Assembly (NCBI GenBank): GCA_007378985.1
Contig: VMHB01000005.1
Location: 9,235 to 73,234, forward strand
Source of the DNA: Parcubacteria group bacterium Greene0714_7
GTDB taxonomy: Bacteria; Patescibacteriota; Minisyncoccia; Phycocordibacterales; Phycocordibacteraceae
Length of the DNA: 64,000 bases
Reading direction: 5' to 3'
The notes beneath the pieces are model-generated. The model saw only the letters and a list, made by a program, of their open reading frames with translations. It was not told the DNA's origin and made no database searches. The position numbers and the translations under genes were made by a program. This document shows, piece after piece, positions 5,962 to 38,821 of the stretch. Position 1 is the first letter of the stretch, and every line of letters begins with the position of its first letter.

Positions 5962-6182
5962 TCAGAGATTATAACAGCCGAAAGCTTCTAGGTTCTAGGT
6001 GCTAGGTGCTAGCTTAAATTAGAATCACAAATACACATGTTTAAAGTTTTCTATATATCAGTTAACTGATATATAGAAATACGGCCTACAAAAATAGTAT
6101 TTCTACTTTGTGCTAAACCCGGGTTTAGCACACAAGACCTAAAGGCTTAAAAAGCTAGAAACTAACAGCTGGAACCTGACAC

Positions 6183-7784: not shown

Positions 7785-7818
7785 AACTAGGGTATAGGGG
7801 TTAGGGTTTAGGGAAAGA
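7785..7818 (+). repeat. 7-bp periodic array (TAGGGNN)x4, G-quadruplex-capable, telomere-like GGGTTAGGGTTTAGGG
   Basis: ctagggtataggggttagggtttagggaaag read directly; four G3+ tracts with 3-4 nt loops. Confidence 0.6.
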
Positions 7819-9426: not shown

Positions 9427-9531
9427 ACAAAGGGTTCTAGTTTATAGGTGAAGAAAAAATGCTTTTCCAGATGTTAGCTGTGTAAAGCTAGCACCTAGAA
9501 CCTAACACCTAGAACCTTTATACTAGACCTA

Positions 9532-12500: not shown

Positions 12501-12624
12501 TGAGGTCTACAAAACAAACGCTAGCGTGCTAGTGGAAGGCACATGCATACTCTTTAAAGGCAAGCTATCAAAGCGAAACGGCGAACCTTCAGTGTTAATC
12601 GATAAAGTGAAAGCACTGAGTTAG
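9532..12624 (+). CDS. dnaE: DNA polymerase III alpha subunit (1030 aa, compact)
   Basis: PHP domain HLSAHSHYSLLDGI; polymerase core motifs; OB-fold C-terminus. Confidence 0.9.
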   Translation: MSSFSHLSAHSHYSLLDGIIQIDALVSSAMFFGMPALALTDHNNLYGAIEFYKACKQAGIKPILGVDADILIGDTEDHIIFLAENNEGYQHLLKLVSHAYLDLSKETDGNALPKVTAEHIQKYGKGLIALIPDTALVRRNSEALVETLRQGLGKENVYARLGWNGGRDQQIRIAGIATALALPMVASDDSYYLKSEDRQARDIVRRIATPGITADTRDLTFCSVESAQEHYRDFPEALLNTEKIAERITVDLNLGSWLFPRFPIPKGTTYESELKVAIAKGLIERGMEATEEVTKRIDYELSIITAKGFAPYFLTVADLLSHARTNGILTTTRGSAAGSLVSYLTGITNVDPISYRLPFERFLNPERPSAPDIDMDFADNRRDEMLVYAKEKYGEECVAQIGTFGTMMARAAVRDVARALGYPYGVGDRIAKLIPLGSQGFPMTLKKALEMEDELKKLYKSDEDAEIIINTAKQVEGNARHISIHAAGIVIAPSAVSDFVPVQFEPSGSAIITQYDMHEVEDAGLLKFDFLGLTNLSILGDSVERVKIRKGVEVDIENIPLDDAKTFAMLARGETGGVFQLGGSGMTHYLKDLKPTSIHDINAMVALYRPGPMESIPQYIERKHNPALVTYLDPRMKDILDRSYGIITYQDDVLLIAIHLAGYTWLEADQLRKAMGKKIPVEMEAQKEKFIQGCVEKGKIQKTKAESLWKLIEPFAAYGFNKGHAASYGKVAYQTAYMKANHPEDYMASLLSADSGDTERIADDVAECERIGIRVLPPDINESYESFTVIAHGMIRFGLSTIKNFGEGAAKTIIEERTRGGKFTSIGDVLSRVPGSIINRRALESLIKCGVFDAFNNRGILLANIEKLLLFAKDAGATSAGQDSLFGTMVRHTDIALDPARALSQIEMLNSEKELLGIYVSGHPLDQFKAELAKYPHSIKFARAEERNGYPLTVCGVIESIKTILTKKGDKMAFITISDKDGFIETVAFPEVYKTNASVLVEGTCILFKGKLSKRNGEPSVLIDKVKALS

Positions 12625-12706
12625 GTTATAGCTTCTAGGTGCTAGGTTCTAGGTTTAAATTCAGCATCCGAAAAGCTAGCACCTAGAAGCTAGTCCCTAG
12701 AACCTG
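12621..12706 (+). repeat. inverted pair of 7-bp-periodic TAGGT/TAGCT arrays flanking an 18-nt spacer, between dnaE and thrS
   Basis: ttaggttatagcttctaggtgctaggttctaggttt ... gctagcacctagaagctagtccctagaacctg. Confidence 0.6.
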
Positions 12707-19720: not shown

Positions 19721-22210
19721 TTATTGCGCCCTTCTAAGATCTGGGAAATCTCCTACGGAGCCATCTCTAGGTCGAGCTGTCTCAGTAATGCCTTCACGGA
19801 GAAACTGGAAGATAACTTTTGGTGAGCCATCAGGGTTTCTGTATGCTGCTGCCCCATCTGGATGCGCTGGCGTTGTGTGTAGTTCTTCATAGAAATGCAA
19901 CCAACGACCTAGTTCGCGGATTTGCTCATCACTCAAGATTCCACCAAATTCTGCTTTCAATGCTACAAATCGCACTCCTTCAGTACGGCCCTGAATGAAA
20001 GCCTCAGGAATCCTTGAAAGAAATGTTCTCTCAAGAACTGCTTGTGCATTTGACGATCCTCCCTCTTGAGGAATAATATCGTTTCCAATCAAATACATTT
20101 GATTATTAACAACATCATTTAAGGTACGGCCAATTTCATTTGCTTCCAAGATGCCATTGCCATTTATATCAATACCTGGAACGAAACGATTAGGTCTACC
20201 ATCACCATCTGGATCTACGGCAAAAAGTGGTATCGGATCTTTAGGACTGAGAACACTAATATCAGAGCCGCGGGCAGTGCGTGCACCACCAGTCATCCTC
20301 CATTCTTCACTCGTGCCAGTAACCAAACCGTCAAACTGCTCAGCTGTACGAACAACCTCTGTTCCTCTGTCGGTTACAATAGTTGGTTGAGAGAACTGAT
20401 TGTTTTCAAGATTCAAACAGTGGAAAGTATCTGTTCCTGTGAGGTTGTTGTGAAATCGGAGATACACAAACTTGTAGTCCATGTTTTTTTGGTAATCAAC
20501 CCACGCTGAACGCTCGCTGAGCGCTCTGATCATATACTGACGAGCCTCCTCAAGACTTTCACCTCTGTATTCAAGTATGCGAAGATTCGTAACCTTCATT
20601 TCTGGACCACACGAAGTACAGTCTGAAGCTACAAAGCCAGATTGTTCCGACCAAATAACGCGAGGCACAACAAGTACCGGTCTTTCTGGTGTTGGCGGAG
20701 GCACAAATGCTTCCGGTGGTGGTGCCGTAACTACGGTACTATCGCTATAAAGAGAAAAGTTATAACAATCTTGTTCACCAGAACCATCGGCTTTACCTAT
20801 TGGTATTTCAACCATGACCTCATGCAAAACACCACGTGCATCAGTGTACGAAAAAGGCATTTTTAACGCACGGTATACCGGAGGGTGTTCACCTCTAAAG
20901 CCAGGCTCTCTACTCGCATCAAAAAGAACTCTGTCGATACCATCACCGAGCACGCTGGGGACACCGCGAGTCCTAAATGCCTGCGCTTCCCACTCTCTCC
21001 TAGTAAAATCAACGAACTCCGGACTCTGATTGTTCTTAAAAGCATTTGCTGCTGCAATAAATTCTTCGCGTGCCTCAGGATTCATACCGCCTCGAATCAA
21101 CACGTCTGCCGCTTCACTAATGGAGCGAGGACTCAGTGCTTCTGTGAGACTTCTAGCCCATGGAGCACTTCCGAAATGTGTAATGAGTTGTGTTCGTCCT
21201 ACCTCAGGCGCTCCGCCTGTAGCTGTTTCTATAACTGCACTGCCTGTGCCAGTTGGAACATAACCCGCTCGTACTACTCCTTGCGAACCAGGAGCATGCA
21301 TCTCTGCCGCTGCTGCAGGACCTCCAAGTAATCCCTGTAACGCAACACCAGCTGCTACACCAACCTTTTGCATAAAATCTTGAAATGCCCCAGTACCATG
21401 AGCCAAATAGTCTGCCCATCCTTGCTCCAAACCTATGTGATGTAATCCAGCATCAACACCCTTAGAAGCCCACTGTCCTGCCGAGTGACCAACATGATCT
21501 GGTGTCAATACACCAGTTGTAATAACTGTCGCGGTAGTAAATCCAAGAGAAGCTACTAAGCGAGCGAGTCGTCTGCGTCCTATTGATTTTGCACGGCTAC
21601 GTAGAAGCTCTCGATTTTCTTTCTTAAAATCTTCAATAGTCTGCCCTGCTTTACGCGCAGCAAGTTCTTTTGATGCATACTCTTCTCGAATTCCTTTTGC
21701 TACAGGTTTAATTGCAAAATGCGATGCGACTCCAAAACCTGCACCTGCGGCAACCATTGCATACAAACTCGTGCCACCTAAGTGAAAAGCTGCAGCAAGC
21801 GGTGCAGCAGCCACTGCAGGCACTGCAATACTACCGACAGCAACAGTTGCAGACATCTGCTCTGGAGTAATGTGTTTTCCTGCAATACTTAAATACGGTC
21901 TTGCTTTCCAACTTTCTGCACCCACTGCTCGCTCCGCCGCATCAAGACCTTCTGTTTGAAAAATAAATTGCTTGTACGCTTGAAATGCTGCGCGATATTT
22001 CTGACGAGCTATTACGACCGCTGGATCTGTGTCATTTTTTGCTTTTACAAATACATCATGATAAATCGCTCTCGTAACCTTCACTGGTGCATATGCAGAA
22101 TCTTTGGCTGCACGAGCACGCTCACGCTGGAGTGCGCTTTCAGATTTTCTACGATTGCCCTTTTGATTGGCAATCTCTCGCGGAGCTTCTTCTGCTAAAT
22201 GTGTCGACAT
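19721..22210 (-). CDS. large membrane protein of unknown function with dockerin/EF-hand-like Ca-binding loop (DPDGDG...DINGNG)
   Basis: ORF extends to 22330, but MSTHLAEE at 22210 has an AAGGA upstream and is the likelier start; two hydrophobic segments; no catalytic motif recognised. Confidence 0.45.
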   Translation of the reverse strand: MSTHLAEEAPREIANQKGNRRKSESALQRERARAAKDSAYAPVKVTRAIYHDVFVKAKNDTDPAVVIARQKYRAAFQAYKQFIFQTEGLDAAERAVGAESWKARPYLSIAGKHITPEQMSATVAVGSIAVPAVAAAPLAAAFHLGGTSLYAMVAAGAGFGVASHFAIKPVAKGIREEYASKELAARKAGQTIEDFKKENRELLRSRAKSIGRRRLARLVASLGFTTATVITTGVLTPDHVGHSAGQWASKGVDAGLHHIGLEQGWADYLAHGTGAFQDFMQKVGVAAGVALQGLLGGPAAAAEMHAPGSQGVVRAGYVPTGTGSAVIETATGGAPEVGRTQLITHFGSAPWARSLTEALSPRSISEAADVLIRGGMNPEAREEFIAAANAFKNNQSPEFVDFTRREWEAQAFRTRGVPSVLGDGIDRVLFDASREPGFRGEHPPVYRALKMPFSYTDARGVLHEVMVEIPIGKADGSGEQDCYNFSLYSDSTVVTAPPPEAFVPPPTPERPVLVVPRVIWSEQSGFVASDCTSCGPEMKVTNLRILEYRGESLEEARQYMIRALSERSAWVDYQKNMDYKFVYLRFHNNLTGTDTFHCLNLENNQFSQPTIVTDRGTEVVRTAEQFDGLVTGTSEEWRMTGGARTARGSDISVLSPKDPIPLFAVDPDGDGRPNRFVPGIDINGNGILEANEIGRTLNDVVNNQMYLIGNDIIPQEGGSSNAQAVLERTFLSRIPEAFIQGRTEGVRFVALKAEFGGILSDEQIRELGRWLHFYEELHTTPAHPDGAAAYRNPDGSPKVIFQFLREGITETARPRDGSVGDFPDLRRAQ

Positions 22211-22395
22211 AATTATTTTATATTCCTTAAAAAATGTATGAAAATCCCGATTGGGAATTATTGAGACAGTATCACGCTTAAATGGCTTTGTCAAGTCTGG
22301 TAATGGGCACCTTTCATAGCCGTCTAACATTCAGAGTAATTACGAGAAGGATTAGAAGCTTGACAAGAGCAATCTTATATGATATACAGTGTTTT

Positions 22396-23454
22396 ATGGA
22401 AAACGATTTAAAAAAGACCCAGTCACGCCTCGGGGGCGTTGCAGTACGAGCTCTTGCCATTTTTGGCTTTCTCGCAATTATTATTGTAGGTATGTGGGGC
22501 TCTGTGCAGGTGGCGCGCGGTATCCCAAATGCATTCTCATCATTCGCATCAGCGATTGTGAGCTTTACTTCAATCTTCGTTCCTGCGGGAGAAAAGATTG
22601 CTCTTTCAGCACCTTCGCTCACTATCAATTCAAGCGAACCATTTGTACTTTCATGGACACATGAGAAGAAGAGCATCGAGGGTTCATATACATTCCGCTA
22701 CAACTGTGCGGACGGCGTATCATTCATGAGCGCTTCAACAACGGTCTACTGTAATGTTCCTTTCAATTTCACACACTCAAGCAACCAAATAACTCTCACT
22801 CCCCTTTCAACTAATAACCGATTCGTCGATGTGCAAGTCTTCATCGACTTCACACCAAACGGCGCAAATCGTCCTACTGTTACTGGGCAAACAACATTCA
22901 CTATTCAAAACACAGGAAATGCAACAAGCCCAGGAACGCTCACTCCTACAACTCCAGTAACAACAACACCAACTCCTACAACGCCTGTAGTAACAACCCC
23001 TCGTCCAGTGACCGCAGGCCCAACACAAACTCAGGTCTACCCAATCAACGGAGGTGTAGGTGTCTCTAACCCAAATGGCTATGTTGACCTCACTGCACGC
23101 ATTCTTGAAATTGGTGTCGTGGATAAAAGTTCTGGTGTCTTTACCGCAAGCTCAACTCCAAGCCGTACAAACACTCGTATTGCAGTTCGCTTTGCAGTCG
23201 AAAACATTGGTACAAAAACCTCACCTGAGTTTGACTTCAATGCAGTACTTCCAACACTCCCTGCAAACATCTTCTCAGCACCACTTCAGCAAGCTCTTGC
23301 CCCTGGTGACCGTATTGAATTCACTGTAGGATTTGACAGCTTTGACGCTTCAAAGCCAGACGGACTCTTCGTGGTAAATATTGATCCTGCAGGTCGCATC
23401 AACGAGCGCAACAAGGACAACAACATCGTGAGATACACGATCACAACGAGATAA
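22396..23454 (+). CDS. membrane-anchored protein with Thr/Pro-rich linker and C-terminal CARDB-like domain
   Basis: Start MENDL...; TM helix; TTPTPTTPVVTTP linker; C-term ...NERNKDNN typical of CARDB. Confidence 0.55.
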   Translation: MENDLKKTQSRLGGVAVRALAIFGFLAIIIVGMWGSVQVARGIPNAFSSFASAIVSFTSIFVPAGEKIALSAPSLTINSSEPFVLSWTHEKKSIEGSYTFRYNCADGVSFMSASTTVYCNVPFNFTHSSNQITLTPLSTNNRFVDVQVFIDFTPNGANRPTVTGQTTFTIQNTGNATSPGTLTPTTPVTTTPTPTTPVVTTPRPVTAGPTQTQVYPINGGVGVSNPNGYVDLTARILEIGVVDKSSGVFTASSTPSRTNTRIAVRFAVENIGTKTSPEFDFNAVLPTLPANIFSAPLQQALAPGDRIEFTVGFDSFDASKPDGLFVVNIDPAGRINERNKDNNIVRYTITTR

Positions 23455-23465
23455 TCTGAAGAAGG

Positions 23466-23498
23466 TTTTAGGTGCTAGCTTATAGGTTATAGCTTTTA
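23466..23498 (+). repeat. 7-bp periodic TAGGT/TAGCT array
   Basis: ttaggtgctagcttataggttatagctttt. Confidence 0.55.
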
Positions 23499-23510
23499 AG
23501 AAAGAAAAAT

Positions 23511-23669
23511 ATGACTGACCTCAATAAAGATAAGTCTCCTGTTCGGCAAGAGAAAGAAACCTGTAAAGGCTGTAGTGGTACTGGAGCGATAGAAATGTTT
23601 TCTGTGTACAAAAAATGCCAGAGGTGTAAAGGAACCGGTAAATCCTATCCATATTCACTAGACGATTAA
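23511..23669 (+). CDS. mini zinc-finger protein, 52 aa, two CxxCxGxG motifs (DnaJ CR-type-like)
   Basis: MTDLNKDKSPVRQEKETCKGCSGTGAIEMFSVYKKCQRCKGTGKSYPYSLDD; paralog 100 nt downstream with the same 5' leader and 3' element. Confidence 0.45.
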   Translation: MTDLNKDKSPVRQEKETCKGCSGTGAIEMFSVYKKCQRCKGTGKSYPYSLDD

Positions 23670-23769
23670 TAGCGGGCCACAACCGACGGGTGCGAACTCC
23701 AAGCAAAAAATAAAAGAATTAGTCATTATGAGAAGTAGAATAGATTTTAGTTTTTAAGAAATAAAAAAT

Positions 23770-23904
23770 ATGTCTGACTTCAGTAGAGACCAGCAACCTG
23801 AAAAGAGAGAAAAGTGTAGTACCTGTAAAGGCAACCGTGAAATACCAACCTCATTCGGGTATATCCCATGTGCTGTATGTAGCGGGAGCGGATACAAATC
23901 TTAA
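23770..23904 (+). CDS. mini zinc-finger protein paralog, 44 aa (CSTC...CAVCSGSG)
   Basis: MSDFSRDQQPEKREKCSTCKGNREIPTSFGYIPCAVCSGSGYKS; conserved leader ttttaagaaaNaaaaatATG and 3' CCGACGGGTGCGAACTCCAAGCAAAAAA shared with the upstream copy. Confidence 0.45.
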   Translation: MSDFSRDQQPEKREKCSTCKGNREIPTSFGYIPCAVCSGSGYKS

Positions 23905-23948
23905 AGAAATTCCGACGGGTGCGAACTCCAAGCAAAAAACTCTCCTTC

Positions 23949-23973
23949 ACCGGAGAGTTTTTCTGTTCTCATT
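23949..23973 (+). terminator. rho-independent terminator after the second mini zinc-finger gene
   Basis: ctctccttcaccggagag hairpin followed by TTTTT. Confidence 0.55.
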
Positions 23974-24024
23974 CATGCTCTACCCACTGCTTCCAAAAAC
24001 AATCACAACAGTGAATACTGACGG

Positions 24025-24060
24025 TATAGTATAAATTAACGATCGTTAACTTATACTATA
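24025..24060 (+). repeat. 36-nt near-perfect palindrome TATAGTATAAATTAACGATCGTTAACTTATACTATA (family copy 1)
   Basis: One mismatch; a perfect 52-nt version lies at 31546..31597. Confidence 0.65.
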
Positions 24061-24185
24061 CAGCCTTAAATAACATAAAAAGAAAAATCCAGTGACAATA
24101 GCGCAACCTAGCAATTAAAAACCCTCCTTAATCAGAGAGTTTTTAATTTCTGTATTGATGTTAAAAAGCTAAACGCTAGCCCCTG

Positions 24186-26288
24186 CTATATATCGAGTGT
24201 TGCTGCTTTGGCGTTTGATTGAATAAATGATTTACGCGCAGGAACATCCGTACCCATAAGGATGTCGAATACTCTGTCAGCATCTTGCCCATCTTCAACC
24301 TTCACTTGTTTCAACACACGGCGAGTAGGATCCATAGTAGTCTCCCAGAGCTCTTCTGGGTTCATTTCACCAAGTCCTTTGTAGCGTTGAATAGTTGGCT
24401 TTGCTTGTTTTTTTGTTGCCTTACTTTCAACCTGTTCTTCTGTTTCTTCCTCATCAACTTCCTCCAAAGATTCCTCGGTATTGAACTCCTCGCTCTTGAT
24501 ACCACGAGCCTTTAGAAGATCCTCCAACTCTGCTTCAGTTTGCAAGTAGAAAACTTCCTTCCCAAACTTTGCTTTAAAGAGTGGTGGCTGTGCAATATAC
24601 AAGAATCCGCCGTCAATGACTCCACGGAAATAACGATAAAAGAGTGTCAAAAGAAGTGTGCGAATATGGGCACCGTCAACATCGGCATCGGTTGCAATGA
24701 TTATCTTATGGTAACGAAGTTTTGAAATATCAAACAAATCCCCTATTGCAGTACCCATAGCAATAACGAGATTTTTAATTTCATTTGATGCAAGCATTTT
24801 ATCCAAGCGTGCGCGCTCAACATTCAAAATCTTTCCACGAAGCGGAAGTATTGCCTGTGTACGCCTATCCCGTCCCTGCTTTGATGAGCCCCCTGCTGAA
24901 TCTCCTTCCACAATGAATATCTCAGATTCCCATGCGTTCTTTGTCTGGCAGTCAGCAAGCTTACCGGGCAATGTCATGCCATCCAAGGCACCTTTGCGAA
25001 GCACTGAGTCTTTTGCAGCTTTTGCAGCTTTACGAGCTTTGAGTGCGAGAAGCACCTTCCCAATGATTGAACGCGCTTCATCGGGATGCTCTTCCAAGAA
25101 TATGTTAAACGCTTCACTGAAAACATTCTCAACTGCACCGCGTGCTTCAACTGAACCAAGTTTTCCTTTCGTTTGACCTTCAAATTGAATCTCGCGAAGC
25201 TTAACTGAAATGATGCAGGTAAGTCCTTCCAAAACATCCTCTCCAGTAAAATTTTCATCAGCTTCTTTAACGATATTGTTTTTCCGAGCATAGGTATTGA
25301 GTGTGCGTGTCAAGGCAGTTTTGAAACCAGTAACATGCGTTCCTCCTTCTGCGTTATAGGTGTTGTTAGCAAATGCCGTGATGCGTGCAGAAATATCATC
25401 AACATACTGCAACGCAACTTCTACCTGTACATCGTCCACTTCTTTCTCAACATAAAAAACACTATTGTGAACAGGTTTCTGAAAGCGATTATTAAAGATT
25501 ACAAGTGACTTGAGACCCCCTTCGAAATAAAATGTTTGCGACGGGACCAAGAACCCAAGTTCGCGAAAATAACGCACATCGGCAAGGTCAATTTTTCCCG
25601 GGTATTCACGTGCATCAACAATAGAAATACGCACTGCCTTCACGAGGTACGCCTGTTGGCGTAGGTGTTGCACTATTTTGTTAAAGTCATATTCAATAAC
25701 GGGGAAAATAGTTGGATCAGCCTCGAACGTTATGATAGAGCCTGTAAAATCGGTGGAGCCCACCTTCTTGACGCGAGCGCGAGCTTTGCCACGATCATAC
25801 TCTTGAAGATAGTAGCCACCGTCTTTATGTACTTCAGCTTTTGTATATGTTGATAGTGCATTAACGACTGATGCACCAACACCATGGAGTCCTCCTGACA
25901 CTTTGTAGCCATCACCACCAAATTTGCCACCGGCGTGCAGTGTCGTCATGATAGTCTCGAGTGCCGACACTTTAGTTGTCTTATGAATGTCAACGGGGAT
26001 ACCTCGACCGTTATCGATAACACGGATGCGATTATTGGGAAGTAGAGTTACTTCAATATCGTCCGCAAAACCACCCATCGCCTCGTCGCGTGAGTTATCG
26101 AATATTTCCCAAATGAGGTGATGCAAGCCGTCTAAACCAGTGGTACCGATGTACATTCCAGGACGCTTTCGTACCGGCTCAAGTCCCTCTAGAACAGTAA
26201 TGGATTCCGCACTGTACGTGCCCTCCTTAGCTTTAGCGGCGGAGGGTCCGTCTGATTTTTTAGCTTCTTTTTTAGGAGTTTTTGCCAT
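24186..26288 (-). CDS. gyrB: DNA gyrase subunit B
   Basis: 700 aa; GHKL ATPase, TOPRIM, acidic C-terminal tail; LHAGGKFGGDGYKVSGGLHGVG. Confidence 0.9.
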   Translation of the reverse strand: MAKTPKKEAKKSDGPSAAKAKEGTYSAESITVLEGLEPVRKRPGMYIGTTGLDGLHHLIWEIFDNSRDEAMGGFADDIEVTLLPNNRIRVIDNGRGIPVDIHKTTKVSALETIMTTLHAGGKFGGDGYKVSGGLHGVGASVVNALSTYTKAEVHKDGGYYLQEYDRGKARARVKKVGSTDFTGSIITFEADPTIFPVIEYDFNKIVQHLRQQAYLVKAVRISIVDAREYPGKIDLADVRYFRELGFLVPSQTFYFEGGLKSLVIFNNRFQKPVHNSVFYVEKEVDDVQVEVALQYVDDISARITAFANNTYNAEGGTHVTGFKTALTRTLNTYARKNNIVKEADENFTGEDVLEGLTCIISVKLREIQFEGQTKGKLGSVEARGAVENVFSEAFNIFLEEHPDEARSIIGKVLLALKARKAAKAAKDSVLRKGALDGMTLPGKLADCQTKNAWESEIFIVEGDSAGGSSKQGRDRRTQAILPLRGKILNVERARLDKMLASNEIKNLVIAMGTAIGDLFDISKLRYHKIIIATDADVDGAHIRTLLLTLFYRYFRGVIDGGFLYIAQPPLFKAKFGKEVFYLQTEAELEDLLKARGIKSEEFNTEESLEEVDEEETEEQVESKATKKQAKPTIQRYKGLGEMNPEELWETTMDPTRRVLKQVKVEDGQDADRVFDILMGTDVPARKSFIQSNAKAATLDI

Positions 26289-31545: not shown

Positions 31546-31597
31546 AAAGACTGTATAGTATAATTTAACGATCGTTAAATTATACTATACAGTCTTT
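31546..31597 (+). repeat. 52-nt perfect palindrome AAAGACTGTATAGTATAATTTAACGAT|CGTTAAATTATACTATACAGTCTTT
   Basis: Verified by reverse-complementing half-sites; family member at 24025. Confidence 0.7.
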
Positions 31598-37740: not shown

Positions 37741-37800
37741 CGGCTACTAGGTTATAGGTTTTAAATTCAAGCTAGAAGCTAGCACCTAGAACCTAGTACC
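37741..37800 (+). repeat. 7-bp periodic array: TAGGT units then reverse-orientation AGCT/ACCT units across ~60 nt, between prfA and rpsB
   Basis: ctaggttataggttttaaattcaagctagaagctagcacctagaacctagtacc. Confidence 0.6.
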
Positions 37801-37803
37801 TTC

Positions 37804-38748
37804 TTAAGCTGTCTCAGCTTCATTCGCCTTAGCTTTGAGAGTCTCCAGCATGGCATCAATATTTCCTTCCAAAATTGATTCAATATTGTGCCATGACTCC
37901 TTAATACGGTGGTCAGAAACACGGTCCTGCGTGAAGTTATATGTGCGTATCTTTTCGGAACGACTCCCTGTGCCAATTTGAGACTTTCTATGCGCAGCAT
38001 GTTCTGCGGCAGCCTTTTCTTCTTCAAAGCTTTCGAGTTTTGCAGCAAGAATTTGCATTGCTTTATCACGGTTCGCCTTCTGACTTCTCTCTGACTGCGC
38101 TCGCACTTCAAGACCTGTAGGGATATGAACAAGACGTACCGCTGTCTCAACTTTGTTAACATTCTGCCCCCCTGCCCCACCTGAGCGAGAAAATTCCATC
38201 TGCACATCAGCTGGATTTAACTCAAATTTTGGAAATTTCCTGATAGGCAGTATTGCAACAGATGCCGTAGAAGTATGAATGCGTCCTGATTTCTCAGTAA
38301 CAGGAATACGCTGAACACGGTGCACACCGGTTTCATACTGAAGTGCACTATATACACCTCTACCTGTTACTTCTATTGATTCTAAGTTTGGATCAAGAAC
38401 TTTTACCTCCCACCCCTTCGCTTCGGCATAGCGCATATACATACGCGCTAAATCCCCCGCAAAAATATTTGCTTCATTTCCGCCTGCTCCTGCACGAAAC
38501 TCCATCACCACAGCTACTGGCTCGTCTTCAGGTCCATCGGTAACAGGCGCAAGTATTTCCTGCATTTGTTCTAAGAGAGTCTGTCGTTGAGATTCTAGTT
38601 GCACCCGCTCCTCTTCCGCAAGCTCCGCAAGTGACGGATCGCTTTCTTTCAACTCCAGAACACGCGAGAGCTCATGTGTCAGTCGATCAAACTCAGCAGC
38701 GAGATATGCAGTTTTTGGATTTGATTTAAATTCTTGAATGTCCAACAT
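37804..38748 (-). CDS. prfA: peptide chain release factor 1
   Basis: 314 aa; GGQ motif SGGAGGQNVNK; RF1-type PVT tripeptide (RVQRIPVTE). Confidence 0.9.
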   Translation of the reverse strand: MLDIQEFKSNPKTAYLAAEFDRLTHELSRVLELKESDPSLAELAEEERVQLESQRQTLLEQMQEILAPVTDGPEDEPVAVVMEFRAGAGGNEANIFAGDLARMYMRYAEAKGWEVKVLDPNLESIEVTGRGVYSALQYETGVHRVQRIPVTEKSGRIHTSTASVAILPIRKFPKFELNPADVQMEFSRSGGAGGQNVNKVETAVRLVHIPTGLEVRAQSERSQKANRDKAMQILAAKLESFEEEKAAAEHAAHRKSQIGTGSRSEKIRTYNFTQDRVSDHRIKESWHNIESILEGNIDAMLETLKAKANEAETA

Positions 38749-38821
38749 AGTAATTAGCCACTAGTGATTAGGGTATAGGGAGTGTGGGGTTTTGCCTAGT
38801 GGCTATACCCTATTGGCTAAC

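What the first reader, a model, noticed from the sequence alone, without database searches (positions are those of the whole stretch)
23466..24066. Tandem duplicated module of mini CxxCxGxG zinc-finger genes with conserved leader and a conserved 28-nt 3' element
Two ORFs below the size cutoff (52 and 44 aa) each carry two CxxCxGxG motifs, the DnaJ cysteine-rich zinc-centre signature, and share an N-terminus M[ST]D[LF].[KR]D. They also share the leader ttttaagaaaNaaaaatATG and an identical downstream CCGACGGGTGCGAACTCCAAGCAAAAAA. In both copies the 3' element is in the same reading frame as the ORF, reading [ST]DGCELQAKN, although stop codons intervene (TAA TAG in copy 1). The unit is bounded by a heptad array, a clean intrinsic terminator and a copy of the 36/52-nt palindrome. 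It could be a small duplicated regulatory or chaperone-like module, or a conserved RNA or recoding element.
Basis: partly seen in the sequence, partly recalled or inferred. Interest (0 to 1): 0.5.

Follow-up and report, generated by a model that had tools for sequence, protein, structure and literature searches.

The report
Swappable small-gene slot with conserved 3' motif
The two tiny zinc-finger genes are real but are only one of many interchangeable small-gene cargoes in a strain-variable slot of a Parcubacteria (CPR) genome, and the identical 28-base element behind each belongs to the slot rather than to the zinc-finger genes: it is an undescribed, strongly conserved motif between the last stop codon and the transcription terminator, and its function is unknown.

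Summary
There are two paralogous mini zinc-ribbon ORFs (52 and 44 aa), a shared leader, and an exact 28-mer present only twice in 64 kb. The interpretation needs revision.

In about 25 related Paceibacteria/Parcubacteria loci, the 28-mer (element E, CCGACGGGTGCGARCTCCAAGCAAAAA) lies on the sense strand between a conserved CARDB surface-protein gene and the convergent gyrB. It usually starts 1-3 nt after a stop codon and sits just 5' of an intrinsic terminator.

The ORF in front of E is CARDB itself in 11 copies and one of at least 10 unrelated small ORFs in 13. Relatives whose CARDB 3' ends are 92-99% identical in DNA carry an empty slot, a 44-aa basic ORF, or two or three other ORFs. In one of them the flanks match the window up to the ATG and again from E onward, while everything between differs.

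E is 26/28 conserved between the 43% GC window and a visibly GC-richer relative. It tolerates at least seven different hairpin insertions at one internal point and matches no Rfam family. Its reading frame relative to the upstream ORF is random (9/10/5), so recoding is refuted.

Best reading: a cargo-swapping small-gene slot whose conserved 3' boundary is probably an RNA-level 3'-UTR motif. The mechanism is unproven.

The parts
22282..23454 (+). CARDB-domain surface-protein gene. The real start is probably the ATG at 22396, which gives a 352-aa product. It is the conserved 5' anchor of the slot and lies downstream of the sortase gene and large surface-protein genes.
   Evidence: Pfam CARDB E=1.1e-7. 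198 homologues in Patescibacteria. The arrangement CARDB -> <- gyrB is seen in more than 40 loci.
23469..23499 (+). Heptad array: TAG-N4 four times, then TAA. It places stops in all three frames and is part of the intergenic leader.
   Evidence: the 4xTAG pattern occurs 14 times in the window against 0 expected, always in intergenic regions. The same array precedes cargo ORFs in L021, L076, L003, L022 and L074.
23494..23510 (+). A-rich leader of ORF1 (TTTTAAGAAAGAAAAAT).
   Evidence: The 213 nt ending at the ATG differ at only 3 positions from L076, which carries different cargo.
23511..23669 (+). ORF1, a 52-aa mini zinc-ribbon protein (CKGCSGTG ... CQRCKGTG).
   Evidence: 45% identical to the stand-alone 54-aa protein P0175. 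Orthologue in L074.
23683..23710 (+). Element E, copy 1 (internal). It is followed by the next cargo unit and not by a terminator.
   Evidence: 44.5 bits, E=4e-12.
23736..23769 (+). Leader of ORF2: a degenerate TAG/TAA array followed by TTTTTAAGAAATAAAAAAT.
23770..23904 (+). ORF2, a 44-aa mini zinc-ribbon protein (CSTCKGNR ... CAVCSGSG) and a paralogue of ORF1.
   Evidence: 63% identical over 27 aa to P0147. Weak homologue in L007 (57 aa, ending CPSCKGSGYK).
23912..23939 (+). Element E, copy 2 (terminal). Its A-rich tail forms the A-tract of the terminator.
   Evidence: 43.8 bits.
23935..23962 (+). Intrinsic terminator: AAAAA, stem CTCTCC, loop TTCACC, stem GGAGAG, TTTTT.
   Evidence: Sequence. 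RNAfold gives -17 to -21 kcal/mol for E plus hairpin here and in L009 and L022. The simple scan did not list it, probably because the A/T tracts extend the stem.
24024..24061 (.). Perfect palindrome (dispersed repeat) between the two terminators.
   Evidence: second copy at 31554. Conserved at the same place in L009, L022, L075 and L076.
24110..24151 (.). Terminator hairpin of gyrB, with A- and T-tracts on both sides.
24186..26288 (-). gyrB, the conserved 3' anchor of the slot, convergent with CARDB.

Best explanation
The region between the CARDB surface-protein gene and the convergent gyrB is a strain-variable expression slot for small proteins in one clade of Paceibacteria/Parcubacteria (CPR).

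Shown:
- The slot has fixed punctuation. At the 5' end is an intergenic leader: a heptad TAG array followed by an A-rich stretch up to the ATG. At the 3' end is element E followed by an intrinsic terminator.
- The coding cargo between these boundaries is exchanged between lineages. It can be nothing, or one to three small ORFs from at least 10 unrelated families.
- The window carries two cargo units of one family (mini Zn(Cys)4 ribbons), and each kept its own E. That is why the 28-mer appears twice.

Inferred:
- E acts at the RNA level on the sense transcript, as a 3'-UTR element sitting between the terminating ribosome and the terminator. It is a short, mostly single-stranded recognition sequence (CCGAC-GGGUGCGA-ACUCC-AAGC-A-rich) with an optional hairpin inserted after GCG(A).
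- It is most likely a binding or processing site that sets the 3' end, stability or termination of the operon mRNA. A less likely version is that E is the seed of a 3'-UTR-derived small RNA.
- Because all alleles share E and the leader, these sequences also serve as the homology arms at which cargo is swapped.
- The zinc-ribbon proteins are probably small protein- or nucleic-acid-binding accessory factors built on a single zinc centre, as in half of a DnaJ Cys-rich domain or in Anti-TRAP. Their targets are unknown.
For: Locus-specific and strand-specific:
- The covariance model found 24 hits with E<=1.4e-4 in 405 kb searched on both strands. All are on the CARDB sense strand and all lie downstream of the CARDB homologue. 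Four more hits were found in extra loci.
- Only two copies exist in the 64-kb window, one in the whole L002 MAG for the pattern used, and none in IMG/VR.

Independent of the zinc ORFs:
- The ORF upstream of E is CARDB in 11 copies and an unrelated small ORF in 13.
- Zinc-ribbon ORFs occur only in the window and L007 among the first ~70 loci screened, plus L074.

Strong constraint:
- E is 26/28 identical between the window (43% GC) and L002, whose flanking DNA is visibly GC-richer. The CARDB C-terminus is only 64% identical in protein and the terminator stems share no sequence.
- The two window copies are 28/28 identical, whereas their ORFs are 35% identical.

Cargo swapping:
- L009 and L075 have an empty slot. 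L022 has one 44-aa ORF. L021 has three ORFs. L076 has two ORFs. Their CARDB 3' ends are 92-99% identical to the window in DNA.
- Window versus L076: 210 of the 213 nt ending at the ATG are identical, and about 96% are identical from the 3' half of E through the terminator and palindrome. Everything between is unrelated.
- L021 is a mosaic. Its CARDB end is 93.8% identical to the window and 76.8% to L003. Its gyrB end is 82.2% identical to the window and 88.2% to L003.

RNA-level hints:
- E always has sense orientation and always sits between a stop codon and a terminator.
- At least seven different hairpins are inserted at the same internal point (L003/L021, L010, L034, L018, L014, L023, L074/L076). 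The model aligns five of these forms as loop insertions; L014 and L023 were placed by nhmmer and inspection.
- The 4-bp P1 stem (GGGU/RYUC) can pair in 96% of cells, against at most 71% in shifted registers.

Zinc ORFs are coding:
-.
Against: - There is no double-sided covariation for P1, and shuffled controls do as well.
- The short E is essentially unstructured (MFE -2.8 kcal/mol, z=+0.5), and the long forms give z-scores of only +0.1 to -2.7. RNA structure is therefore compatible with the data but not demonstrated.
- No expression data were available, and there is no Rfam family to lean on.
- Three copies (window E1, L036a, L017) have no adjacent terminator. This weakens a purely terminator-linked role.
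- No base-pairing target better than those found with shuffled E sequences appeared in 64 kb.
- The ORF1 orthologue shows 10 nonsynonymous against 2 synonymous codon changes. This is not classical purifying selection.
- The zinc ORFs were not called by gene finders and are absent from the protein collections.
- The AlphaFold model was unusable (pLDDT 51).
Confidence: 0.55

Rival explanations
1. E is a DNA-level recombination or insertion site, in the manner of an attC, att or Xer site, at which small-gene cassettes are captured and exchanged. The two identical copies are the duplicated site flanking an inserted cassette.
For: - Cargo replacement has its 3' breakpoint at or inside E.
- E flanks cargo as a direct repeat in the window (E1-ORF2-E2) and in L036 (CARDB-E-115-aa ORF-E). 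The two copies within each genome share the same derived bases.
- E is 28 bp long, a typical length for a site-specific recombination site.
- A MITE-like element with 21-nt inverted repeats sits inside E in L015.
- The slot is a mosaic junction.
Against: - No recombinase or integrase was found among the annotated genes of the window. The neighbours are housekeeping genes.
- E has no dyad symmetry and no attC-like R''/R' inverted cores.
- Of the 12 evaluable cargo-bearing arrangements, 11 have no E between the CARDB stop and the cargo; only L036 does.
- The strict sense orientation next to a stop codon and a terminator is not required for a DNA site.
- 20-45-nt hairpin insertions in the middle would split a protein-binding DNA site.
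- There is no GC-skew switch, so it is not a dif/terminus site.
Confidence: 0.15
2. E plus the terminator hairpin forms a trans-acting small RNA derived from the 3' UTR. The conserved unstructured 22 nt would be the seed, followed by an A-rich stretch, the terminator stem and a U-tail.
For: - The architecture (conserved single-stranded segment, A-rich linker, intrinsic terminator) matches that of canonical 3'-UTR-derived sRNAs (established knowledge; sequence).
- Sequence conservation is extreme although structure is weak.
- The seed contains ACUCC, which could pair with GGAG-type ribosome-binding sites (inference).
Against: - Internal copies without a terminator (window E1, L036a, L017) would not give a stable sRNA.
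- Hairpins inserted into the middle of a seed are unusual.
- No target in 64 kb beats the shuffled controls.
- Hfq or ProQ homologues were not looked for.
Confidence: 0.2
3. E is a recoding or readthrough signal, or a conserved C-terminal extension ([ST]DGCELQAKN) translated after stop-codon suppression.
For: In the window both copies are in frame with the ORF, as are L009, L022, L003 and L021.
Against: - Across 24 copies the frame is 0/1/2 in 9/10/5.
- Additional in-frame stops intervene (TAA TAG in copy 1; TAA TAA in L010).
- Most inspected insertions (e.g. 32-33 nt in L003 and L076) are not multiples of three.
- E also follows CARDB in frames 1 and 2 (L002, L013, L019).
Confidence: 0.02
4. 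The two small ORFs are not genes. They would be chance open frames in a fast-evolving intergenic spacer, and only E and the terminator would be functional.
For: - They were not called in the public assembly and are absent from the protein collections.
- The ORF1 orthologue has 10 nonsynonymous and 2 synonymous changes.
- Antisense ORFs of 61 and 56 aa overlap them.
Against: - Four Cys and the Gly residues are aligned in ORF1, ORF2, the L007 ORF and the L074 orthologue, with no stops or frameshifts.
- Stand-alone homologues were called as genes elsewhere, with pairwise E=1e-9 and 5e-11.
- The profile matches the DnaJ Cys-rich domain in the PDB.
- The A-rich leader and ATG are conserved.
Confidence: 0.08

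Closest known systems
Anti-TRAP (RtpA, Pfam PF15777) of Bacillus
   Same: A protein of about 50 aa built around one Zn(Cys)4 centre made of two CxxC(xGxG) knuckles. It is a stand-alone small regulator that acts by binding another protein. It is the best Pfam hit for ORF2 (E=0.0011).
   Different: Scores are far below the family cut-off (19.3 and 14.8 bits against 32). The spacing between knuckles is 14 residues, against 10 in B. subtilis Anti-TRAP (from memory). No TRAP gene was seen in the window. The genomic context differs: there is no T-box or leader peptide.
DnaJ cysteine-rich domain (PF00684; PDB 1exk) and DnaJ-like zinc-finger-only proteins (BSD2/ZnJ2 type)
   Same: The CxxCxGxG signature. 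1exk is the best solved-structure match (E=2.7e-4). Zinc-finger-only relatives lacking a J domain exist (PMC5818400).
   Different: There are only two motifs, giving one zinc centre, where DnaJ has four motifs and two centres. Scores are below the Pfam cut-off (22.5 and 16.7 bits against 32.7). There is no J domain or C-terminal domain.
Integron gene cassettes (ORF + attC) and other cassette arrays
   Same: Compact ORFs whose stop codon abuts a conserved 3' element. Cargo varies between strains at a fixed chromosomal position. The 3' element occasionally occurs as a direct repeat on both sides of a cargo unit.
   Different: There is no integrase and no attI. E is 28 nt with a conserved sequence and no inverted core sites, whereas attC sites are 57-141 nt with conserved structure and variable sequence. 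Most arrays here have a single E.
3'-UTR-derived sRNAs and conserved 3'-UTR elements upstream of intrinsic terminators (for example CpxQ or SroC types in enterobacteria; from memory)
   Same: A conserved, largely unstructured segment lying directly between a stop codon and a Rho-independent terminator, and conserved far better than the neighbouring sequence.
   Different: No expression or processing data and no identified target. The host is a CPR bacterium. Internal copies lack terminators. A variable hairpin is inserted within the conserved segment.
Flexible genomic islets and orphan-module swapping at conserved junction motifs (for example CDI/Rhs toxin-immunity modules)
   Same: Allelic cargo replacement bounded by short conserved sequences that all alleles share, with mosaic phylogeny across the junction.
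   Different: The upstream CARDB protein's C-terminus is conserved and not polymorphic. The cargo is small stand-alone ORFs, and no toxin or immunity signatures were found.

Membership tests
DnaJ_CXXCXGXG (PF00684) | Whole-protein score at or above the Pfam gathering cut-off (32.7 bits). | tested here: not met
   22.5 bits (ORF1) and 16.7 bits (ORF2).
DnaJ_CXXCXGXG (PF00684) | Four CxxCxGxG repeats forming two zinc centres. | tested here: not met
   Two motifs per ORF. In ORF2 one motif is CxxCxGxR.
Anti-TRAP (PF15777) | Score at or above the gathering cut-off (32 bits). | tested here: not met
   19.3 bits (ORF2) and 14.8 bits (ORF1).
Anti-TRAP (PF15777) | Binds TRAP (MtrB), so a TRAP gene should be present in the genome. 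| not testable with these tools
   Only 64 kb of the genome is available. No TRAP-like gene appears among the annotated ORFs.
Any Rfam family (release 15) | A match at the gathering score over E or over the module. | tested here: not met
   Only tRNA-Thr matches in the window. The permissive scan of 23400-24200 gave only chance-level hits, the best being Phe_leader at 28 bits against a cut-off of 55.
Integron attC site / gene cassette | Imperfect inverted repeats with R''/R' cores (RYYYAAC ... GTTRRRY), length 57-141 nt, and an intI integrase with attI next to the array. | tested here: not met
   E is 28 nt without inverted cores. There is no recombinase among the neighbours.
dif / Xer recombination site | A 28-bp site with two 11-bp arms of partial dyad symmetry around a 6-bp spacer, single copy, located at the replication terminus (GC-skew switch). 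| tested here: not met
   No dyad symmetry. Cumulative GC skew runs monotonically through the locus. The window has two copies.
Programmed readthrough / recoding signal | A fixed reading-frame relation between the upstream ORF and a conserved downstream coding extension. | tested here: not met
   Frames 0/1/2 occur in 9/10/5 of 24 copies, and extra in-frame stops are present.
Structured cis-regulatory RNA (generic) | Base pairs supported by compensatory (double-sided) changes. | tested here: inconclusive
   P1 pairs in 96% of cells but has 0 double-sided changes, and shuffles do equally well. Seven different hairpins are inserted at one point, but they cannot be aligned with one another.
Intrinsic (Rho-independent) terminator, for the hairpin after E2 | A GC-rich stem-loop followed by a U-run. 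| tested here: met
   CTCTCC-TTCACC-GGAGAG-TTTTT. RNAfold gives -17 to -21 kcal/mol. An equivalent hairpin of different sequence follows E in most loci.

The most novel reading that the evidence does not exclude
E and the conserved leader are the functional boundaries of a previously undescribed small-gene cassette exchange system in CPR bacteria that needs no integrase. In this reading E is an active signal and not just a passive homology arm. It could be recognised as RNA or single-stranded DNA by a lineage-specific factor, or it could act on the terminating ribosome. Either role would explain why at least 10 unrelated ORFs all place their stop codon within a few nucleotides of it.
Probability: 0.12. 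Interest if true: 0.75.

Novelty: new variant of a known kind. Interest (0 to 1): 0.5.

Why it matters
CPR/Patescibacteria are almost unexplored for non-coding elements and small proteins. This locus offers three things.

First, element E is a cleanly delimited orphan motif under very strong constraint. It is 26/28 conserved across a large GC shift and about 40% protein divergence, and a covariance model is now available to search complete genomes.

Second, the slot is a natural experiment. Related strains place different small proteins between the same leader and the same 3' element, next to a conserved sortase/surface-protein operon. These may be accessory factors for the episymbiotic lifestyle or for phage conflict, which is speculation.

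Third, the ORFs extend the family of single-zinc-centre mini proteins, which gene callers miss.

If E turns out to control 3'-end formation or cassette exchange, it would be a new regulatory or mobility signal in a major bacterial radiation.

Tried and rejected
- Exact-sequence look-ups and the word-based homology search for the two small ORFs found nothing. The ORFs are too short and were not called as genes.
- Rfam at gathering and at permissive thresholds gave nothing relevant.
- IMG/VR scan for E gave no match.
- dif/terminus idea: rejected, because there is no GC-skew switch and no dyad symmetry.
- tRNA-fragment / att idea: E resembles a T-arm (GGGUGCGAACUCC against GGGUUCGAAUCCC), but G53:C61, U55 and a 5-bp stem are all missing, and ARAGORN finds nothing there. 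Rejected.
- Pseudoknot between E and the terminator loop: the GGUG/CACC pairing is possible only in window copy 2. The loops differ in L009, L022, L003 and L006. Rejected.
- Antisense promoter or antisense ORF in E: no conserved -10 element, and the antisense ORFs diverge immediately after E. Rejected.
- Target search for E as an sRNA seed in the window: the best non-self duplex is -27.4 kcal/mol, against -27 to -32.5 for shuffled seeds. Uninformative.
- HutP/TRAP-like reading of the TAG-N4 array: the array is a genome-wide intergenic repeat and not specific to this module, and no such protein was seen. Left as a side note.
- AlphaFold on the two-sequence alignment gave pLDDT 51, which is unusable, so no fold search was run.
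- PHROGs gave only weak hits to families of unknown function for the zinc ORFs and none for the other cargo ORFs.
- Literature searches found nothing describing this locus, element or slot.
Full report
**1. The observation**

- ORF1 (23511-23669, 52 aa) carries CKGCSGTG and CQRCKGTG. ORF2 (23770-23904, 44 aa) carries CSTCKGNR and CAVCSGSG.
- The two proteins are 35% identical over 43 aa, with all four cysteines aligned.
- The 28-mer CCGACGGGTGCGAACTCCAAGCAAAAAA is exact at 23683-23710 and 23912-23939. It occurs nowhere else in the window with up to 3 mismatches, against 0 expected. A covariance model run without filters scores these two copies at 44.5 and 43.8 bits and nothing else above 9.6 bits.
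- Copy 2 is followed at once by an intrinsic terminator, CTCTCC-TTCACC-GGAGAG-TTTTT.

There are three small corrections.
- ORF2 has only one canonical CxxCxGxG motif.
- The two leaders differ by an indel.
- The 'heptad array' is a genome-wide intergenic repeat and is not specific to this unit.

**2. Context**

- Upstream lies a CARDB-domain surface-protein gene (22282-23454, + strand). It is preceded by large unannotated proteins and a sortase gene.
- Downstream lies the convergent gyrB (24186-26288, - strand).
- The other annotated genes of the window are housekeeping: dnaE, thrS, rnhB, purD, mscS, pheST, rnc, nusB, tsf, rpsB, a release factor, transketolase and others. No recombinase was seen among those scanned.
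- The CARDB protein has about 200 homologues, labelled Patescibacteria, Parcubacteria, Paceibacterota or Kaiserbacteria. The window is therefore from a CPR bacterium.

**3. Element E belongs to the locus and not to the zinc-finger genes**

A degenerate scan of one genome per GTDB species gave a single hit, L002. There the same CARDB -> <- gyrB arrangement has no small ORF at all. E (CCGACGGGTGCGAgCTCCAAGCgAAAAA) follows the CARDB stop after 3 nt and precedes a bidirectional terminator.

I then fetched syntenic loci through CARDB homologues and searched them with an HMM and a covariance model.
- In 405 kb searched on both strands there are 24 hits with E<=1.4e-4. All are on the CARDB sense strand and all lie downstream of CARDB. 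Four more hits came from the loci fetched later.
- E is present in loci whose CARDB C-terminus is at least 57% identical to the window.
- It is absent from about 30 more distant loci, which have only a terminator between the two genes.
- E is 26/28 conserved between the 43% GC window and L002, whose flanking DNA is visibly GC-richer. In that pair the CARDB C-terminus is 64% identical in protein and the terminator stems share no sequence.

The ORF that ends in front of E is CARDB itself in 11 copies and a small ORF in 13. Those small ORFs fall into at least 10 unrelated families:
- zinc ribbons (window twice, L007, L074);
- a 44-aa Arg-rich peptide (L022, L003);
- 41/42-, 51/52- and 51-aa ORFs (L021, L076);
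- 95-aa, 104-aa and 208-aa proteins (L006, L005, L063, L003);
- several hydrophobic peptides of 52-59 aa and one of about 115 aa (L016, L039, L040, L036).

These are documented. The stop codon usually lies 1-3 nt before the CCGAC of E.

**4. The slot swaps cargo**

Loci whose CARDB 3' ends are 92-99% identical to the window at the DNA level carry different contents:
- nothing (L009, L075);
- one 44-aa ORF (L022);
- three ORFs (L021);
- two ORFs (L076);
- an ORF1 orthologue behind a different leader (L074).

The clearest case is window versus L076.
- 210 of the 213 nt ending at the ATG are identical.
- About 96% are identical from the 3' half of E through the terminator, the palindrome and the gyrB terminator.
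- Everything between the ATG and E is unrelated.

L021 is a mosaic. Its CARDB end groups with the window (93.8% against 76.8% to L003). Its gyrB end, its form of E and its terminator group with L003 (88.2% against 82.2% to the window).

The leader and E are thus the fixed punctuation of a slot whose coding content is exchanged. The window holds two cargo units of the same family, each with its own E. L036 independently shows CARDB-E-ORF-E.

**5. What E looks like**

- The consensus of the short form is (A)CCGAC-GGGU-GCGA-RCUC-CAAGC-A-rich.
- GGGU/RYUC can form a 4-bp stem closed by a GNRA-like loop. It pairs in 96% of cells, against at most 71% in shifted registers. There is no double-sided covariation, however, and shuffled controls do as well.
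- The short form is thermodynamically unstructured.
- At least seven loci or groups carry a 20-45-nt hairpin of unrelated sequence inserted at the same point, after GCG(A) and before (A)CUCC. They are L003/L021, L010, L034, L018, L014, L023 and L074/L076. The covariance model aligns five of these forms as loop insertions. L014 and L023 were placed by nhmmer and by inspection.
- In L015 a 130-nt element with 21-nt perfect inverted repeats splits E after CCGACGGG.
- No Rfam family matches, and E is absent from IMG/VR.

**6. Recoding is refuted**

- The frame of GAC-GGG-TGC relative to the upstream ORF is 0/1/2 in 9/10/5 of 24 copies.
- In-frame stops intervene.
- Most inspected insertions are not multiples of three (e.g. 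32-33 nt in L003 and L076).

The in-frame relation seen in the window is shared only with its closest relatives.

**7. The zinc-ribbon ORFs**

Evidence that they are genes:
- Pfam gives sub-threshold hits to DnaJ_CXXCXGXG and Anti-TRAP.
- A profile of the two ORFs finds the DnaJ Cys-rich domain 1exk in the PDB at E=2.7e-4.
- Among 1.84 billion representatives it finds 71 proteins with E<=1e-3. Most are multi-repeat CxxCxGxG proteins, but some are stand-alone minis. P0175 (54 aa) is 45% identical to ORF1 and shares GAIEM. P0147 (72 aa) is 63% identical over 27 aa to ORF2.
- Those minis lie in clusters of short overlapping genes that look phage-like. That description is my inference from the gene layout.
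- The L074 orthologue of ORF1 has 10 nonsynonymous and 2 synonymous codon changes, yet keeps every Cys and Gly of the motifs and has no frame disruption.

I take them as real, fast-evolving mini proteins with one Zn(Cys)4 centre. They do not meet the membership criteria of either Pfam family. The AlphaFold model was too poor to use.

**8. Mechanism**

Shown:
- There is a conserved, strand-specific and locus-specific element at the 3' boundary of a cargo-swapping slot.
- It is independent of the identity of the cargo.

Inferred:
- E works on the sense RNA as a 3'-UTR recognition or processing element that sets the 3' end, stability or termination of the operon transcript. My probability for some RNA-level role is about 0.6, which includes the 3'-UTR-derived sRNA variant at about 0.2.
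- E and the leader also act as homology arms for cargo exchange.

A DNA recombination-site role is the main alternative, at about 0.15. For it:
- the breakpoints lie at E;
- E occurs as a direct repeat around cargo in the window and L036.

Against it:
- no recombinase was found nearby;
- E has no dyad symmetry;
- most arrays have a single copy;
- some copies are interrupted by hairpins.

No model except compaction or a termination-coupled role explains why unrelated ORFs always end right at E.

**9. Comparison and novelty**

- The proteins resemble Anti-TRAP and half of a DnaJ Cys-rich domain.
- The slot resembles integron cassettes and flexible genomic islets in behaviour but fails their defining features.
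- E resembles conserved pre-terminator 3'-UTR elements and sRNA seeds.
- Nothing describing this element or slot turned up in Rfam or in the literature searches.

I rate it a new variant of known kinds, of moderate interest. It is a well-delimited orphan motif and a natural small-protein swap site in CPR bacteria, and its mechanism is still open.

Noticed in passing
window 5988-6012, 7788-7811, 9488-9511, 12622-12700, 23469-23492, 37772-37796, 38748-38819: Heptad arrays (TAG-N4)n / (CTAGNNN)n occur in many intergenic regions. The 4xTAG pattern has 14 matches against 0 expected. The arrays place stop codons in all three frames, often on both strands. The same arrays precede cargo ORFs in L003, L021, L022, L074 and L076. 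The spacing equals that of HutP-type UAG-N4 sites (from memory), but no such protein was seen.
   Followed up: partly
window 24025-24060 and 31554-31589; also L009, L022, L075, L076: A 36-nt perfect palindrome, TATAGTATAAnTTAACGATCGTTAAnTTATACTATA, is a dispersed repeat. It is conserved between the two terminators in close relatives. A second palindrome family, AAACTATACGATnnATCGTATAGTTT, occupies the same spacer in L021, L022 and L003.
   Followed up: partly
L015 1728-1880: A ~130-nt insertion with 21-nt perfect terminal inverted repeats (CCCGCACACCTATGTTCACAT) splits element E after CCGACGGG, with CGGG/GGG on both sides. It looks like a MITE.
   Followed up: no
L036 618-1022: An independent case of two E copies: CARDB stop, E, a ~115-aa hydrophobic ORF, then E. 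Both copies share the derived bases CTGAC and GCTCT.
   Followed up: partly
L021 versus window and L003: A phylogenetic mosaic across the slot. The CARDB 3' end is 93.8% identical to the window, but the gyrB 3' end, the form of E and the terminator are L003-like.
   Followed up: yes
L072 (273-437) and L073 (534-752): The stand-alone mini zinc-ribbon homologues P0175 and P0147 lie in runs of short, overlapping, unannotated genes typical of phage or mobile-element regions. A CsrA gene lies nearby in L072.
   Followed up: no
L017 4840-4885: A tandem repeat, (GGATATTCC)n with about 5 copies, lies just outside the gyrB end. Here E has no adjacent terminator, and a minus-strand ORF occupies the spacer.
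   Followed up: no
window 22282-22396 and 19721-22330: The 390-aa CARDB ORF overlaps the start of the divergent 869-aa ORF by 49 nt. Public gene calls give 352 aa in most strains, so the real start is probably the ATG at 22396. The 869-, 878- and 391-aa neighbours have no Pfam match.
   Followed up: no
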